Assembly (NCBI GenBank): GCA_944359025.1
Contig: CALVSM010000002.1
Coordinates: forward strand, 1-41,925
DNA length: 41,925 nucleotides
Direction of reading: 5' to 3'
Source of the DNA: an uncultured Bacilli bacterium
GTDB lineage: Bacteria > Bacillota_I > Bacilli_A > RF39 > UBA660
Position 1 is the stretch's first letter; each line of letters starts with the position of its first letter. The notes under the pieces are model-generated. The model searched no databases and was not told the DNA's origin. It was given only the letters and a program-made list of their open reading frames with translations. This document shows positions 4,364 through 16,709 of the stretch, piece after piece. A program made the translations under genes and the position numbers.

Positions 4364-5070
4364 TTTTCCTCCTTCGGATAAACCATATTAGGAAAATATT
4401 TAGCTAGAAATTCGTCATCGTAATGTTTATCAAAAAATTCGCCAACGGGAGTGAATGCCGGAATATTGTTTCTTCTTAATGTTTGTCTAATAATTGCTCC
4501 CCAAGAAATAAGCATATTAACAATCATGAAAATTAATAATATTCTAGTTAATAGCATACCTAAATTGTAAGGTATTTTTTCGATCCATTGCGATAAAAAA
4601 GGATAAATAAACCTTACTAATATAAATGATAAAACTCCCCACAACAATACATATTCTAAAGTAATTCTACCGTTTATATTTAATAGTTTATGCGAATAAT
4701 CCCAAGAAATCGTCTTAGTAAATGTCTCTTGTAAGAAGCCAACTAAATATTCAACTCCCCCACCTAAAATCGCACCATATATAATAGTTTCATACCATTT
4801 ATGCTTTTTATCAGCTAATAAGCAAATTATCACTACTGCTCCAAAACCATAAATAACATTAAATGGTCCATAAATAACGCCTCTTCTAAATTCCCATACT
4901 AAATTACCTGTTTTTGAATAAACTAAAAATAAATTTAAAATTTGTTCATATAACGAACCAAAAACAGAAGCTATTAAAAATATAATAAATAATTTTTCAA
5001 AACATATCCCTTTAGCAAAAATTTTTTCTTTTTTAAATAAATTTTTAAATCTTTCCTTCATACTATCCAA
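4360..5070 (-). CDS. Polytopic membrane protein, DUF1113 / putative ABC-transporter type IV (CmpB-like) family
   Basis: It has about six TM helices and the motifs GVIYGPFNVIYGFGAV and GGGVEYLVGFLQE recalled from PF06541. It is translationally coupled to the GT2 gene. Confidence 0.5.
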   Translation of the reverse strand: MDSMKERFKNLFKKEKIFAKGICFEKLFIIFLIASVFGSLYEQILNLFLVYSKTGNLVWEFRRGVIYGPFNVIYGFGAVVIICLLADKKHKWYETIIYGAILGGGVEYLVGFLQETFTKTISWDYSHKLLNINGRITLEYVLLWGVLSFILVRFIYPFLSQWIEKIPYNLGMLLTRILLIFMIVNMLISWGAIIRQTLRRNNIPAFTPVGEFFDKHYDDEFLAKYFPNMVYPKEEK

Positions 5071-7271: not shown

Positions 7272-7305
7272 ATATAAAAACAGCTTTAATTAATTAAAAC
7301 TGTTT
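7272..7305 (-). terminator. Rho-independent terminator after the large pilin-like gene
   Basis: The minus strand reads AAACAGTTTTAATT/AATTAAAGCTGTTT (a long AT hairpin with one mismatch) followed by TTTTTATAT. Confidence 0.45.
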
Positions 7306-7320
7306 ATTGTGGATAAGCTA

Positions 7321-7348
7321 CACCTTGCCGCATTATCGGCAAGGTGTG
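7321..7348. other. Perfect 11-bp GC-rich hairpin in the 3' UTR of the large pilin-like gene
   Basis: ACACCTTGCCG-CATTAT-CGGCAAGGTGT. No U-tract follows on either strand. An upstream CAAGGT (minus strand) could pair alternatively with ACCTTG. Confidence 0.6.
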
Positions 7349-7393: not shown

Positions 7394-9425
7394 TTATATT
7401 TCGTATGGACTCGACCAAGTACCATTACCTCCGGTAATGGTGACATTAGAGTTGACAACTATAACTGCACGAAGGCCGTACGCGTCGCTGACACTGTCGC
7501 TGACGCCGACGCCGGCGAAGCTGACGTACCAAGCGTAAGAACTAGAAGTTCCCGGTGTCATTGTCCAATAATCATTCGCATTACCAAAGCTACTTGCAGT
7601 TGTATATCCTTTTGTTAGGATACTACTACTTTGTCCTGATAACATCTCTCCTATTCTTATTAACCCTACTGTTGCATTGATACTCCTTGTTGGACTATTT
7701 TCTTCCAATGATATCGTATAATTACCACCAGAAGTAAATTCATTTTGATGCCATGTATAATTTGTTACTAATTTATCTCTATTTTCAGTATCACTACTTG
7801 CTACTAACCATTCTAATACATCACTATTTAATTTTTGACCTATTCCCGTTGTTATTGAAAATGTATTATTACTTCCATATTCCATTTCATAAACACTACC
7901 GTTTTCTTCATAATAGCCATCTAGTATTAATTTGGTATTGCCATTACTATCTTTATCGACTACCCGATATTTCTTTCCAGCATATAATACATACTCCCCA
8001 CTTGTTGCTTTTTCGTTTAATTTGCCTGTTACTTCTATACTCTTATCTTCGTTTAAAATATATGGGCCAGCACTACTACTCCAAGTTGCTCCTAGAGTAC
8101 CATTACCTCCGGTAATGGTGACATTAGAGTTGACATTTATAACTGCACGAAGGCCGCCCGCGGCGTCGACACTGCCGGAGTTGCGGCCGGTGATGTTGAC
8201 GAGCCAAGCGCGAGAACCATCATATGGCGTTAATGTCCAAAATACTTGCTGATTAACTAAATAAGAACTATCAGCTCCAGCTAAATTATTTTCATCTAAT
8301 GATATTAAGCCTACTTTGGCTTTTTCCGTCGATAAATTATTACTACAATTTGTCCTTGCACTTGAAACATCTGTCACAGTCTCACTACACCATGTTTGCT
8401 CTACAATAATATCATTTCCTTTTAATCTTGAATAAAAATAATTATTTAACCAATCTTTAGCATGACTTCCATCATAATTTAAAGCGGTATCTTCTGCTCC
8501 CCATGGTATAGCCGTGACATTTTCTTCGATTATTAATCTCACACTTCCATCAGCATTAATTCCCATAATACGCCATAAGAAACCTGAATACCATATATAA
8601 TTATTATATACTTTAACTTGAAAATATTTTTCAGATGTCGTTCCAAATGCAACTTCAAAAGCAGTATCTACTCCATAACTTTCTAAAAGTCCAGCATCCA
8701 TTCCCCCATCCGTAAATGCCCAATTTTCAAATTCTTCTGCTTTAAATTCACCATTTGTTTTAAAAAAACGAGCATCGATTTCTTCTCTTGAAGTAAAACC
8801 AGATAATAACATCAAACTATAAAAATTTTCTTTAGGGTCAATACCACCTTTTAAATAACAACCTCCCATATAACTATAATTGTTACTTCCTGGGTTCACA
8901 CAGCCATTACCATCAGTTTCTAAAAAAGGGAAATTAGATAACACTACATCTTTAATTGGTCCAGTATGTATTATAGCTACTTCATCATCACTTGCCTCAC
9001 ATACTTCATCATCCATCACAAAACTTCCATCGGCACACAATTTAAAAATATGGCCGTTACTTTCTACTTCTAATTCCGTTAATTTACCATCTTCATAAGT
9101 TACTTTATTAACTGTAGCATTGCCTAAATTAACCATATCATTTACTTCTTCTACCGTTACTCCATCCGCACATATATCAGGTGTACCATTTAACTCTTGT
9201 TCCATTTTTGATGTCGCACAATAGTTATTAATACCACTATAAATCATCCTTGCTTCCGAACGACCTGCTGATATACGCGCATCACTAATTACATTTAAGA
9301 TAATTGGTGTCGCAATTAAAGCTACTATTGCTAGTATAATTATTACTGCTAATAATTTAATTAATGTAAAATTATTATTTAATAATTTCCCCCCCCCCCC
9401 GAATTTGCGATTTGCAATTTTTCAT
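7394..9425 (-). CDS. Large type IV pilin-like protein with two DUF1566/C-type-lectin-like modules carrying DGR-style variable regions; frame-shifted (phase OFF) at a G12 tract as sequenced
   Basis: The track ORF 7394..9247 is open upstream to 9421 but has no start codon there. An ATG at 9425 with RBS GGAAAGGAAG and its own promoter lies in the +1 frame and stops at 9375..9377. Removing one G from the tract at 9389..9400 yields MKNCKSQIRGGGKLLNNNFTLIKLLAVIIILAIVALIATPIILNVISDAR..., a class III (pilin) signal paralogous to the pilin at 12018..12428. Confidence 0.75.
7418..7456 (-). repeat. 39-nt post-VR block, copy A (100% identical to 8096..8134), with a 9-bp perfect hairpin
   Basis: The plus strand agtaccattacctccggtaatggtgacattagagttgac is identical in both copies. 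ACCATTACC / GGTAATGGT pair around a 3-nt loop (7421..7441). Confidence 0.9.
7457..7537 (-). other. DGR-type variable region A (C-terminal module), about 60-67% G+C
   Basis: The coding strand reads TAC GCT TGG TAC GTC AGC TTC GCC GGC GTC GGC GTC AGC GAC AGT GTC AGC GAC GCG TAC GGC CTT CGT GCA GTT ATA GTT. It differs from copy B only at codon positions 1-2. Confidence 0.7.
8096..8134 (-). repeat. 39-nt post-VR block, copy B, with the same 9-bp hairpin (8099..8119)
   Basis: It is identical to 7418..7456, although the surrounding protein modules are strongly diverged. Confidence 0.9.
8135..8212 (-). other. DGR-type variable region B (internal module)
   Basis: The coding strand reads CGC GCT TGG CTC GTC AAC ATC ACC GGC CGC AAC TCC GGC AGT GTC GAC GCC GCG GGC GGC CTT CGT GCA GTT ATA AAT. 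Codon usage is NNC inside an NNT/NNA gene. Confidence 0.7.
9389..9400 (-). repeat. Homopolymeric G12 (C12 on the plus strand) tract within codons 9-13 of the large pilin-like gene
   Basis: Counted directly: cc at 9389..9390 plus ten c at 9391..9400. It is the only long G/C homopolymer seen in this AT-rich window. It sits between the ATG (9425) and the body of the ORF, which are 178 nt apart (3n+1). Confidence 0.95.
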
Positions 9426-12017: not shown

Positions 12018-12428
12018 TTAGTTAGAAGCTACTCCTTTAGATAAACTAAATGAGTTACCACTTAAAGTAGCTGTGTATCCATTACTTTCAACAACAAGTG
12101 CAGAAACTCCACTTTCGCCATAAGTTACAGAAACAATTTTAGCTTTACCTAAAGTTACCATTTGGCCAACTTCAGCTGCAGTTACTTCATAACCATTTTT
12201 AGCAGCATTTAAACAAATACTATCTTGAGTACTATTTAATTGATCTTTCATGTCAGCAGTAGCGCAGTAATTATTGATACCACTTAAAATCATACTAGCT
12301 TCAGATTCAGCAGCACTTTTTCTTGCATCGTCAATTACGTTTAAAATAATTGGTGTTGCGATTAATGCTACGATAGCTAAAATGATAATTACAGCTAACA
12401 ATTCGATTAATGTAAAACCTTTTTTCAT
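12018..12428 (-). CDS. Type IV pilin / ComGC-like pseudopilin with a canonical prepilin signal
   Basis: MKKG|FTLIELLAVIIILAIVALIATPIIL carries the N-methylation motif with Gly-1 and Glu+5. It is 136 aa with a GGTGGTGA RBS. Confidence 0.85.
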   Translation of the reverse strand: MKKGFTLIELLAVIIILAIVALIATPIILNVIDDARKSAAESEASMILSGINNYCATADMKDQLNSTQDSICLNAAKNGYEVTAAEVGQMVTLGKAKIVSVTYGESGVSALVVESNGYTATLSGNSFSLSKGVASN

Positions 12429-12464
12429 TTAATCTCACCACCTTACTTTTCTATTTCTATAACC

Positions 12465-16003: not shown

Positions 16004-16058
16004 TAATTCAAACAACATTTAAACAGTTAATTTATTTAAATTATTGATAAAGTTTTTA
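16004..16058. repeat. 55-bp direct repeat, copy 1 (duplicate of the recO 3' end plus 15 nt of downstream flank)
   Basis: taattcaaacaacatttaaacagttaatttatttaaattattgataaagttttta is identical to 16655..16709. Confidence 0.9.
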
Positions 16059-16062
16059 ACAA

Positions 16063-16575
16063 TTATTTATTATTTACTTTCCAATAACCGCTTTCTTGAT
16101 AATAAATTTTCAATGTCTTAAATTCTAAATCTTGTTTAGGAGACTTTATTTTTCTTAACGAATTCCTCGTTCTTTTAGAAAATAAATTAAGAATAGTTTC
16201 ACCGTTCATGCTTTCAACTGAAGAACCGACTCTAATAAAACAACTGTCTGGAGTCATACCCATACCTCTTAAATAATATGGTCTCTCATTACCTTTTGCA
16301 ACAATAATTTGTATATAATTTTTATTGTTTTTTTTATTTACAATAACATCAAATAAACCCAAAGTTGAAGGCATAATATTATTCTTTAATCTATCTTTTA
16401 TAGTTCTTTGTAATAAATCTATATTTTCTAAACTATCTTGAATATTTCCATTGTCATCTACCCCAATAAAAATATTCCCTCCATCAGTGTTTAAAAAAGC
16501 AATTACTTCTTTTTCTAGACTATCAGTAATTTTTGCTTTAAATTCGTTTCTTTTATCTTCCAATAATTCTATCAA
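16063..16575 (-). CDS. AlbA_2 (Schlafen-like) domain protein, apparently C-terminally truncated
   Basis: NEFKAKITDSLEKEVIAFLNTDGGNIFIGVDDNGNI is the typical AlbA_2 N-terminal motif. Full-length relatives are about 400-500 aa with HATPase/HTH parts, but this one ends 5 nt from repeat copy 1. It has a TTG start after GGTGAT. Confidence 0.6.
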   Translation of the reverse strand: MIELLEDKRNEFKAKITDSLEKEVIAFLNTDGGNIFIGVDDNGNIQDSLENIDLLQRTIKDRLKNNIMPSTLGLFDVIVNKKNNKNYIQIIVAKGNERPYYLRGMGMTPDSCFIRVGSSVESMNGETILNLFSKRTRNSLRKIKSPKQDLEFKTLKIYYQESGYWKVNNK

Positions 16576-16654: not shown

Positions 16655-16709
16655 TAATTCAAACAACATTTAAACAGTTAATTTATTTAAATTATTGATA
16701 AAGTTTTTA
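16655..16709. repeat. 55-bp direct repeat, copy 2 (the authentic recO 3' end)
   Basis: It is identical to 16004..16058 and contains the last 13 codons plus the stop of recO. Confidence 0.9.

What the first reader, a model, noticed from the sequence alone, without database searches (positions are those of the whole stretch)
7418..8134. An identical 39-nt block with a perfect 9-bp hairpin follows each variable cassette, a candidate IMH/cruciform target-recognition element
Immediately 3' (coding sense) of the last variable codon, both cassettes continue with the same GTC AAC TCT AAT GTC ACC ATT ACC GGA GGT AAT GGT ACT. Within it, ACCATTACC and GGTAATGGT form a perfect 9-bp inverted repeat around a 3-nt loop (plus-strand coordinates 7421..7441 and 8099..8119).

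The adenines in this block are unmutated in both copies, so mutagenesis stops sharply at its border. In the Bordetella phage DGR, an IMH element plus a downstream hairpin/cruciform marks the VR 3' end and is required for retrohoming.

Conservation at the nucleotide level, including synonymous sites, in two otherwise diverged modules argues for a DNA/RNA-level function rather than selection on the peptide VTITGGNGT alone.
Basis: partly seen in the sequence, partly recalled or inferred. Interest (0 to 1): 0.65.

Follow-up and report, generated by a model that had tools for sequence, protein, structure and literature searches.

The report
DGR target tag with coding hairpin
The repeated 39-base block is real and follows two genuine retroelement-diversified cassettes in a pilin-like gene of a chicken-gut bacterium; it lies just outside the template copy and is probably the tag that marks each cassette for rewriting, a variant of a known signal.

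Summary
Observation confirmed: 7418-7456 and 8096-8134 are identical, and each holds a perfect 9-bp/3-nt-loop palindrome.

The two GC-rich cassettes are true DGR variable repeats (VRs). Related MAGs carry the full cassette: target gene, TR, MutS_I ORF, bAvd, RT. A TR contig from a chicken-gut run matches the window's VRs with 15/3 and 13/1 mismatches at adenine/non-adenine template positions. The window itself has no TR or RT, so it is a remote (trans) target.

TR-VR homology ends at GGCCTTCGTGCAG (7465-7477; 8143-8155). That is 8 nt before the block and 23 nt before the hairpin. So the block is not the IMH, and mutagenesis stops 21 nt upstream of it.

The block's synonymous sites are frozen across at least 11 species and use rare codons. 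38 of 42 targeted cassettes keep the perfect palindrome. 0 of 8 non-targeted paralogous cassettes do, although they keep a similar peptide.

This fits a BPP-1-type downstream hairpin/cruciform recipient signal. It departs from the canon in three ways: the stem is not GC-rich, the loop is 3 nt and variable, and it lies inside coding sequence.

Weaknesses: no compensatory changes, and two related DGRs lack any such hairpin. New variant of a known kind; moderate interest.

The parts
7394..9247 (-). Listed ORF (617 aa) of the DGR target gene, a type IV pilin-like protein with two DUF6273 (C-type-lectin-like) modules, each ending in a VR. The full-length frame would start at ATG 9425-9423.
   Evidence: Pfam DUF6273 E=1.6e-7. 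Homologs of 660-680 aa carry an N_methyl prepilin motif. A PDB profile matches type IV pilin N-terminal helices.
7465..7543 (-). VR-C, the C-terminal variable repeat (TR-homologous stretch): AGTTCT-TAC-GCTTGG, then 51 variable nt (7478-7528), then GGCCTTCGTGCAG.
   Evidence: 15 mismatches at TR adenines against 3 elsewhere, versus the TR contig of run X5. It differs from syntenic strain L001 almost only within this stretch.
8143..8218 (-). VR-I, the internal variable repeat: GGTTCT-CGC-GCTTGG, then 48 variable nt (8156-8203), then GGCCTTCGTGCAG.
   Evidence: 13 mismatches at TR adenines against 1 elsewhere, plus a one-codon deletion, versus the X5 TR. Hypervariable between strains.
7465..7477 (-). 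IMH-like GC-rich 13-mer GGCCTTCGTGCAG of VR-C. It is the last stretch shared with the TR, and its last base is the end of TR homology.
   Evidence: TR/VR junction CGTGCAG|ATTCC (TR) versus CGTGCAG|TTATA (VR) in 9 TR-bearing loci. A Logan contig loose end falls at 7465. The silent third-position A of GCA is unchanged in 41 of 42 VRs.
8143..8155 (-). IMH-like GC-rich 13-mer of VR-I.
   Evidence: Identical to 7465-7477.
7418..7456 (-). 39-nt block, C-terminal copy. The first 15 nt of the block (7442-7456) belong to the 23-nt spacer (7442-7464). Stem arms are 7433-7441 and 7421-7429; the loop codon GGA is 7430-7432.
   Evidence: Synonymous sites are frozen across species.
8096..8134 (-). 39-nt block, internal copy. 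Stem arms are 8111-8119 and 8099-8107; the loop is 8108-8110.
7320..7347 (-). GC-rich 11-bp hairpin (ACACCTTGCCG / CGGCAAGGTGT, 6-nt loop) 46 nt after the stop codon. In cis DGR loci it sits about 25 nt upstream of the TR. Here it is followed by no TR.
   Evidence: No T-run follows it on the coding strand.
9389..9400 (-). Poly-G tract (G12) in the prepilin leader, which puts the upstream ATG out of frame.

Best explanation
The gene at 7394-9425 (-) is a remote (trans) target of a chromosomal diversity-generating retroelement (DGR) of an uncultured low-GC chicken-gut bacterium (Bacilli/Mycoplasmatota lineage).

Proposed mechanism. An RT/bAvd/MutS_I cassette with an ~81-nt TR lies elsewhere in the genome. 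In relatives it sits just downstream of a paralogous pilin-like gene at an mfd-spoVT locus. It makes adenine-mutagenized cDNA that overwrites both VRs.

Anatomy of the VR 3' end. Template information ends inside the GC-rich 13-mer GGCCTTCGTGCAG, which is the functional counterpart of the (GC)14 part of IMH. The VR-specific sequence that follows is a 23-nt spacer plus a 9-bp/3-nt-loop palindrome. I propose it is the cis-acting recipient signal: it tells the homing machinery that this copy, and not the TR, is to be overwritten, most likely by extruding a hairpin/cruciform as in Bordetella phage BPP-1. Because the signal is embedded in coding sequence (V-N-S-N-V-T-I-T-G-G-N-G-T), it can serve a mid-gene VR as well as a C-terminal one.

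Shown: the VRs are DGR VRs; TR homology ends 8 nt before the block and 23 nt before the hairpin; the TR lacks the block; the block is frozen at synonymous sites; palindrome presence tracks DGR targeting.

Inferred: the block is required for homing, and it acts as a structure.
For: 1. Complete DGR in a close relative, L007: target with 2 VRs, TR 4886-4958, MutS_I ORF, bAvd, RT (RVT_1 E=1.7e-17).

2. A 97%-identical RT lies on a contig from the same sample, at the same coverage (5.55 vs 5.60), as L001, the strain syntenic with the window.

3. Trans targeting inside single MAGs. One TR matches 5 VRs on 3 contigs with 47 adenine against 4 other mismatches. Two other MAGs give 29/0 and 21/0.

4. 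The TR contig from run X5 matches the window's VRs with 15/3 and 13/1 mismatches.

5. In all 9 TRs, homology ends at CGTGCAG and is followed by an unrelated, conserved flank. That flank has no comparable hairpin.

6. Of 50 unique cassettes, 38 of 42 with the IMH-like end have the perfect palindrome and 3 more have one mismatch. 0 of 8 cassettes without that end have it. These 8 are mostly AT-rich and non-diversified, and they keep a similar peptide. Fisher p=9e-7; the cassettes are not phylogenetically independent.

7. Minor-synonymous-codon frequency is 0.011 in hairpin codons against 0.150 in flanking codons (p=0.006). Gly, Val and Ala codons vary freely just downstream.

8. The stems need rare codons. 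ACC is 9% of Thr codons, and P(stem codons | peptide) is about 1e-3.

9. In C-terminal cassettes the spacer shows GTC/GTT/GTA variation while the stems stay invariant. The loop codon varies freely: GGA, AAA, AGA, TCC, TCT, GGT.

10. Stem length (9 bp) and position (23 nt after TR homology) fall within the published ranges of 7-10 bp and 4-34 bp (PMC3240598; PMC6602519).

11. The VR with a broken stem pair (L002 internal) has the most non-adenine mismatches to its TR, 6.
Against: - The stem is only 4/9 G-C, and the loop is 3 nt with no conserved sequence. In BPP-1, loop size and the GRNA sequence were critical (PMC3240598).
- Five natural stem variants exist and none is compensated; two are G.T wobbles. 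Structure therefore cannot be separated from sequence or codon constraint.
- Two more distant DGRs of the same clade (MutS_I + bAvd + RT, pilin-like targets) have clearly adenine-mutagenized VRs but only a weak inverted repeat (L041) or no hairpin (L042) downstream.
- One VR (L011 C-terminal) has the IMH-like end and looks diversified but lacks the block.
- Two TRs (L020 and the X5 contig) themselves carry substitutions at adenine positions. Copies without the hairpin can therefore change, either by leaky homing or by VR-to-TR conversion.
- Stability is modest, -7.4 kcal/mol.
- The window's own TR and RT were not recovered.
Confidence: 0.58

Rival explanations
1. Recombination anchor or concerted evolution. 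The frozen block is kept identical because it serves as, or results from, homologous exchange (gene conversion) among the many VR-bearing modules and paralogs in each genome. It is not a signal for the retroelement.
For: Each genome holds many copies: at least 5 VRs per MAG on several contigs. Block k-mers reach 10-30 times the depth of flanking gene sequence in Logan contigs. No covariation was found. TRs with VR-like substitutions suggest that VR-to-TR conversion happens.
Against: Gene conversion alone predicts species-specific variants homogenized within each genome. Instead the same nucleotides are kept across at least 11 species, while codons a few positions downstream diverge synonymously. 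The fixed internal/C-terminal difference (AAT vs GTT), 3 nt from the block, has not been homogenized.
Confidence: 0.15
2. mRNA-level element. The palindrome folds in the transcript (about -11.9 kcal/mol as RNA) and is selected for a translational pause at the end of each lectin-like module, or for mRNA stability, independently of the DGR.
For: It lies in coding sequence at the end of each module. Two of the five stem variants are G.U-compatible. RNA fold energy is -11.9 kcal/mol.
Against: Non-diversified paralogous modules with the same domain boundary and a similar peptide lack it. The conserved stretch also includes the unpaired 23-nt spacer. No Rfam match.
Confidence: 0.1
3. No special function. 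The block is conserved for the peptide (the module-ending motif VNSNVTITGGNGT), and the palindrome and frozen codons are hitch-hiking or chance.
For: The peptide is strongly conserved: TIT...GNG in 193 of 220 motif instances among the 120 listed homologs. The hairpin fails the canonical GC-rich/GRNA criteria. Related DGRs do without one.
Against: Rare codons are used. The exact codon series has P of about 4e-8 given the peptide and the window's codon usage. Synonymous variation is about 14 times lower than in the flanks. Non-targeted paralogs with a similar peptide use ordinary AT-rich codons and have no palindrome.
Confidence: 0.1

Closest known systems
Bordetella phage BPP-1 DGR target signal: IMH plus downstream hairpin/cruciform (Guo et al. 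2011, PMC3240598)
   Same: A GC-rich stretch identical in TR and VR marks the 3' end of information transfer. An inverted repeat of 7-10 bp lies 4-34 bp downstream of it, in the VR flank only. The TR lacks it, which would give directionality.
   Different: There is no 21-bp IMH/IMH* segment of partial homology; TR and VR diverge completely after CGTGCAG. The stem is 44% GC rather than GC-rich. The loop is 3 nt and variable rather than 4-nt GRNA. The element lies inside the reading frame, once in mid-gene, not around the stop codon. Function is untested here.
Multi-target DGRs with remote VRs, e.g. Treponema denticola with eight target genes (as described in the myDGR paper, PMC6602519)
   Same: One RT/TR serves several dispersed target genes. 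Hairpins are predicted downstream of some of the targets.
   Different: Here the targets are type IV pilin-like proteins, each with two tandem DUF6273 modules and two VRs. All VRs share an identical ~54-nt 3' element that myDGR's rule (GC-rich stem, GRNA loop) would not call.
DUF6273 / C-type-lectin-like DGR targets of gut phages (tentaclins, PMC10743442; Faecalibacterium prophages, PMC11792537)
   Same: The same Pfam domain, with the VR at its C-terminal end. One TR can serve two VRs.
   Different: Those are phage receptor-binding or decoration proteins. Here the domain is fused to a prepilin N-terminus in a chromosomal, non-phage context (rpsB, lepA, valS, recO, era neighbours).
Group IIC intron targeting of terminator hairpins (discussed in PMC3240598)
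   Same: A retroelement recognises a DNA stem-loop next to its insertion or integration point. The stem matters more than the loop, which would fit the variable loop seen here.
   Different: This is a different retroelement class. Here the hairpin is not a terminator and lies inside a coding sequence.

Membership tests
DGR variable repeat / target gene | A TR copy whose differences from the VR fall almost only at TR adenines | tested here: met
   The TR contig of run X5 gives 15/3 (VR-C) and 13/1 (VR-I) adenine/other mismatches. Within MAGs the counts are 47/4, 29/0 and 21/0. The TR is not in the window itself.
DGR variable repeat / target gene | A DGR-type reverse transcriptase, with an Avd accessory protein, in the same genome | tested here: inconclusive
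   Present next to the TR in relative L007 (RVT_1 1.7e-17, bAvd 9e-9). A 97%-identical RT lies in the same sample at the same coverage as syntenic strain L001. None is in the 41.9-kb window (Pfam on 20 of its 42 ORFs of at least 100 aa).
DGR variable repeat / target gene | VR at the C-terminal end of a C-type-lectin-fold domain | tested here: inconclusive
   Pfam DUF6273 hit (E=1.6e-7). DUF6273 is described as CLec-like with a C-terminal VR (PMC10743442, PMC11792537). My AlphaFold model was unusable (pLDDT 42).
IMH (initiation of mutagenic homing) element | A GC-rich segment at the VR 3' end, identical in the TR | tested here: met
   Met by GGCCTTCGTGCAG (7465-7477 and 8143-8155), not by the 39-nt block.
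IMH (initiation of mutagenic homing) element | An adjacent ~21-bp segment with partial homology to a TR counterpart (IMH*) | tested here: not met
   After CGTGCAG the VR reads TTATAAATGTCAACTCTAATGTC and the TR reads ATTCCTTCTAAACTTAATTTATA. Only 5 of 23 positions are identical (sequences).
DGR hairpin/cruciform target-recognition element (Guo 2011) | An inverted repeat with a 7-10 bp stem, 4-34 bp downstream of the VR/TR homology | tested here: met
   A 9-bp perfect stem starts 23 nt after the end of TR homology in both cassettes and in 38 of 42 homologous VRs.
DGR hairpin/cruciform target-recognition element (Guo 2011) | GC-rich stem | tested here: not met
   4 of 9 pairs are G-C, although the genome is about 27% GC.
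DGR hairpin/cruciform target-recognition element (Guo 2011) | A 4-nt loop with the consensus GRNA | tested here: not met
   The loop is 3 nt. It reads GGA in the window and AAA, AGA, TCC, TCT or GGT in homologs.
DGR hairpin/cruciform target-recognition element (Guo 2011) | Stem structure, not sequence, is what matters (compensatory changes tolerated) | tested here: inconclusive
   The stems are nearly invariant. Five single-sided variants exist and none is compensated.
DGR hairpin/cruciform target-recognition element (Guo 2011) | Required for retrohoming; extrudes in supercoiled DNA | not testable with these tools
   Needs homing assays and structure-specific nuclease mapping.

The most novel reading that the evidence does not exclude
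The frozen ~54-nt coding element (GC-rich 13-mer, 23-nt spacer, 9-bp hairpin with a free loop) is a sequence-specific address tag of a distinct DGR clade. It would let one chromosomal RT/TR diversify a whole set of dispersed pilin-like genes in trans, at least 5-8 VRs including mid-gene ones. Its recognition mode would differ from the BPP-1 GRNA-loop hairpin in being loop-independent and embedded in coding sequence. Because it is short and portable, it could be transplanted to aim diversification at arbitrary internal protein sites.
Probability: 0.35. Interest if true: 0.65.

Novelty: new variant of a known kind. Interest (0 to 1): 0.5.

Why it matters
How a DGR picks its recipient, especially a remote one, is still poorly understood outside phage BPP-1. 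Prediction tools look only for GC-rich GRNA hairpins.

This locus offers a natural series. There are dozens of VRs in at least 11 uncultured gut species, all served in trans. All share one invariant 3' element that breaks the canonical rules. Paralogous cassettes have lost targeting and the element together.

If the element is the homing signal, three things follow. The definition of DGR target sites widens. It becomes clear how a mid-gene VR can be targeted. And a compact, coding-compatible tag becomes available for engineered in vivo diversification.

It also documents type IV pilin-like adhesins as multi-copy DGR targets in chicken-gut Bacilli/Mycoplasmatota. These genes carry a second, independent layer of variation, a phase-variable poly-G tract.

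Tried and rejected
- TR or RT in the window: an adenine-tolerant scan, motif scans and Pfam on 20 ORFs found none.
- Block as part of the TR: rejected. All 9 TRs diverge at CGTGCAG.
- Base-pairing between the conserved TR 3' flank RNA and either strand of the block: no better than shuffles, z +0.3 to +1.0.
- Known RNA family: no credible Rfam hit. The only hit was L20_leader at E=0.2, well below its gathering score, over the post-stop region.
- Post-stop GC hairpin as an intrinsic terminator: no T-run follows it on the coding strand. An AT-rich palindrome at 7278-7305 is the likelier terminator.
- Compensatory covariation: searched in 50 cassettes. I then fetched the one promising protein variant (TIA, P0041). 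It is ACC>GCC with an unchanged partner, a G.T wobble.
- Hairpins in more distant DGRs. L041 and L042 (same clade) lack a convincing one. A survey of 30 viral DGR loci recovered canonical GC-rich GRNA hairpins in L067, L070 and L071 as positive controls, but nothing resembling this element.
- AlphaFold2 of the whole protein with an 18-sequence alignment: pLDDT 42, unusable, so no fold search was run.
- Metagenome protein-pattern scan: only 11 loci, of limited added value.
- Within-sample VR heterogeneity. All runs are held as Logan contigs rather than reads. Only indirect signs are available: depth collapses and the graph fragments over the VRs, while depth spikes over the block.
Full report
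**The observation**

The window is low-GC (about 27%) chromosomal DNA. Its genes include rpsB, lepA, valS, yfhO, recO, era, ybeY and sporulation genes. On the minus strand an ORF at 7394-9247 encodes a 617-aa protein with a DUF6273 hit. It holds two GC-rich islands.

The 9-bp/3-nt-loop palindrome is at 7421-7441 and 8099-8119. Identity resumes after a 3-nt difference for another 19 nt, CGGCCTTCGTGCAGTTATA.

Folded as single-stranded DNA the hairpin is -7.4 kcal/mol, with z from -2.0 to -3.3. Perfect hairpins of at least 9 bp with at least 4 G-C pairs number only three in the 41.9-kb window, where shuffles expect 0.17. All three lie in this gene.

**The cassettes are DGR variable repeats**

Homologs that are 84-89% identical overall are hypervariable exactly between 'AW' and 'GLRAVI' in both modules. 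A syntenic strain (L001) is near-identical in the flanks. It differs massively inside the two cassettes, in the first two positions of NNC codons.

A pattern scan of one genome per species returned 20 loci from 10 MAGs: uncultured Bacilli, 'Tenericutes' and Candidatus Faecisoma merdavium (taxonomy). In nine loci a third, adenine-rich copy lies 190-250 nt downstream of the C-terminal cassette. These include seven of the 20 loci and two fetched through homologous proteins. The copy reads GCTTGG AAC GTG AAC AAC AAT GGT AAT GCC AAC AAC AAT GAT GTG TCC AAC ACG AAT GGnCTn CGT GCA G. This is the template repeat.

In L007 the TR is followed by a MutS_I-domain ORF, bAvd and a reverse transcriptase. Within single MAGs, one TR matches five VRs on three contigs with 47 mismatches at TR adenines against 4 elsewhere. 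Two other MAGs give 29/0 and 21/0.

DUF6273 is already described as a C-type-lectin-like DGR target domain with the VR at its C-terminal end (PMC10743442, PMC11792537).

**The window is a remote target**

No TR or RT is in the window. lepA follows the gene directly. The window's DNA occurs in chicken-gut metagenomes.

A Logan contig of run X5 carries a TR variant...CTC GTC AAC AAC AAC GGC AAC GGC AAC AAC AAC AGT GTC AAC AAC GCG AAC GGCCTTCGTGCAG|ATTCC. It fits the window's VR-C with 15 adenine against 3 other mismatches. It fits VR-I with 13 against 1, plus a one-codon deletion.

An RT 97% identical to L007's lies on a contig from the same sample and at the same coverage as L001. A cognate DGR elsewhere in the genome is therefore very likely, though it was not recovered for the window itself.

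**Where the block sits relative to the TR**

In all nine TRs, homology to the VRs ends at CGTGCAG. The TR continues ATTCCTTCTAAACTTAATTTATATG..., a conserved flank of its own. The VRs continue TTATA(AAT|GTT)GTCAACTCT(nnn)GTCACCATTACC(nnn)GGTAATGGTACT. A contig loose end at window position 7465 shows the same junction.

Four consequences follow:

- The IMH-like shared element is the GC-rich 13-mer GGCCTTCGTGCAG (7465-7477; 8143-8155). It is not the block.
- The block starts 8 nt, and the hairpin 23 nt, after TR homology ends.
- There is no IMH*-like partial homology (5 of 23 identical positions).
- The last template-derived variable codon is 21 nt upstream of the block.

The 'last variable codon' AAT/GTT is a fixed internal versus C-terminal difference. 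Internal modules read AAT in all 23 cassettes tallied. C-terminal modules nearly always read GTT, apart from ATT in L002, GTA in L011 and one AAT in L010.

The third-position A of GCA in the 13-mer is silent, yet it is unchanged in 41 of 42 VRs. Either transfer stops 5' of it or it is needed for recognition.

**Is the block functional DNA?**

Among 23 internal cassettes selected only on CGTGC[AG]GTTATA, minor-synonymous-codon frequency is 0.011 in the hairpin codons and 0.013 over spacer plus hairpin. In flanking codons it is 0.150 (Mann-Whitney p=0.006 and 0.001). Gly, Val and Ala codons a few positions downstream use two to four synonyms each.

The stems require ACC twice. ACC is 9% of Thr codons in the window, and P(stem codons | peptide) is about 1e-3.

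Of 50 unique cassettes, 42 have the IMH-like end. Of those, 38 carry the perfect palindrome, 3 have one mismatch and 1 has none. The other 8 cassettes lack that end: L023 C, L024 (two), L025 (two), L026 C, L029 and L015 C. Except for L015 C and L023 C they are AT-rich and non-diversified. They keep a similar peptide (I-[IT]-x-G-N-G-T). None has the perfect palindrome (Fisher p=9e-7; the cassettes are not independent). In L023 and L026 the contrast occurs within one gene.

The loop codon is free: GGA, AAA, AGA, TCC, TCT, GGT. So is the codon three positions before the stem. The spacer shows some GTC/GTT/GTA variation in C-terminal modules. The stems do not vary.

This is the pattern expected of a structural DNA element tied to DGR targeting.

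**Comparison with the known element**

In BPP-1, an 8-bp GC-rich hairpin/cruciform just downstream of the VR is required for homing. Stem structure, not stem sequence, matters. The 4-nt GRNA loop is critical. Across DGRs, stems are 7-10 bp and lie 4-34 bp from the VR (PMC3240598; rule restated in PMC6602519).

The present hairpin meets the stem-length, position and absent-from-TR criteria. It fails the GC-richness and loop criteria. It also lies in frame inside the gene, once in the middle of it.

**Evidence against**

- No compensatory pair change was found. The five natural variants are one-sided, and two are G.T wobbles.
- Two DGRs of the same clade (RT 54-56% identical, same accessory genes, pilin-like targets) have clean adenine-mutagenized VRs but a weak downstream hairpin or none.
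- The L011 C-terminal VR looks diversified without the block.
- Two TRs carry substitutions at adenine positions.

The hairpin's necessity is therefore an inference (confidence about 0.58).

Rivals are as follows:

- A gene-conversion anchor. Weakened by cross-species identity and by the unhomogenized AAT/GTT codon 3 nt away.
- An mRNA structure. Weakened by its absence from non-targeted modules.
- Peptide-only constraint. Weakened by codon statistics.

**Other checks**

- There is no Rfam family.
- There is no TR-flank/block complementarity.
- The protein's N-terminus in homologs is a type IV pilin helix.
- AlphaFold on the shallow alignment failed.
- A survey of 30 viral DGR loci recovered canonical GRNA hairpins in three (L067, L070, L071). 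This shows the search method works and that the present element differs from them.

**Verdict**

The DGR reading is right. The 'IMH' label and the 'mutagenesis stops at the block' claim are wrong in detail. The hairpin-as-recipient-signal idea is plausible and supported by comparative evidence, but unproven.

It is a new variant of a known kind of element. The setting is an unusual multi-target, pilin-diversifying DGR system of uncultured chicken-gut bacteria.

Noticed in passing
window 9389-9400 (- strand); also 9356-9358: A poly-G tract (G12) in the prepilin leader puts ATG 9425 out of frame, with a stop after 16 codons, so only the 617-aa internal ORF is listed. Orthologs have G8 or G9 (in frame) or G12 or G13 (out of frame). 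This looks like slipped-strand phase variation, though homopolymer assembly error cannot be excluded. The window copy also has Lys instead of the conserved Glu5 of the pilin motif FTLIELL.
   Followed up: partly
window 7320-7347: A GC-rich 11-bp hairpin lies 46 nt after the stop codon and has no T-run after it. It is conserved downstream of C-terminal VRs in both TR-bearing loci (about 25 nt before the TR) and TR-less remote loci. Its role is unknown; it could be the 5' edge of the TR transcript, a second target signal, or a relic of duplication.
   Followed up: partly
window 7308-7316 (- strand): The only perfect DnaA-box 9-mer (TTATCCACA) in the window sits directly after that hairpin. The same 9-mer is at the same place in TR-less loci L001, L003, L010 and L022, but not in TR-bearing loci, where the TR leader follows instead.
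   Followed up: partly
window 8156-8203 vs 7478-7528; L001, L003, L007, L008, L013: VR length varies in whole codons (45, 48, 51, 54, 57 nt) against a 51-nt TR, between strains and between the two VRs of one gene. This may reflect slippage on the AAC repeats during cDNA synthesis or integration, and is unusual for DGRs.
   Followed up: no
L020 2117-2190; TR contig of run X5 (laid on L007 4840-5099): Two TRs carry non-adenine codons where other TRs have AAC/AAT: TTC, TAC, TAT, AGC and CGC in Ca. Faecisoma merdavium, and CTC in X5. The TR itself appears to have been mutagenized or converted from a VR.
   Followed up: no
L007 5168-5578; L039 500-919; L041 6275-6700; L042 6358-6690: A small ORF with a MutS domain I match sits directly upstream of bAvd throughout this DGR clade (after the TR in L007). 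The ~150-nt TR 3' flank (L007 4959-5110) is also strongly conserved and contains its own hairpins and a terminator.
   Followed up: no
window 7442-7444 / 8120-8122 and 7430-7432 / 8108-8110, compared with L001-L028: Inside the otherwise frozen block, two codons vary among genomes: AAT/GAT/GGT/GGG/GTG, and the loop codon GGA/AAA/AGA/GGT/TCC/TCT. Most variants are reachable by changes at adenines of AAT and AAA, although the TR does not cover them. Unexplained.
   Followed up: no
window 16004-16058 and 16655-16709: A perfect 55-nt direct repeat brackets a Schlafen/AlbA_2-domain ORF (16063-16575) between the HD-domain gene and recO. The syntenic strain L001 has a different 128-aa ORF there. This may be a small inserted cassette.
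   Followed up: no
window 12018-12428 and 9175-9396 vs 12221-12442: A second, short type IV pilin gene (136 aa, N_methyl) lies 2.8 kb upstream. It shares about 70% nucleotide identity with the leader and N-terminal region of the DGR target gene.
   Followed up: no
window 7398-7471 and 8101-8137 (Logan contigs of runs X1-X4): k-mer depth over the block is 10-30 times that of neighbouring gene sequence and collapses over the VRs. This fits many block-bearing copies and highly heterogeneous VRs in chicken-gut communities.
   Followed up: partly
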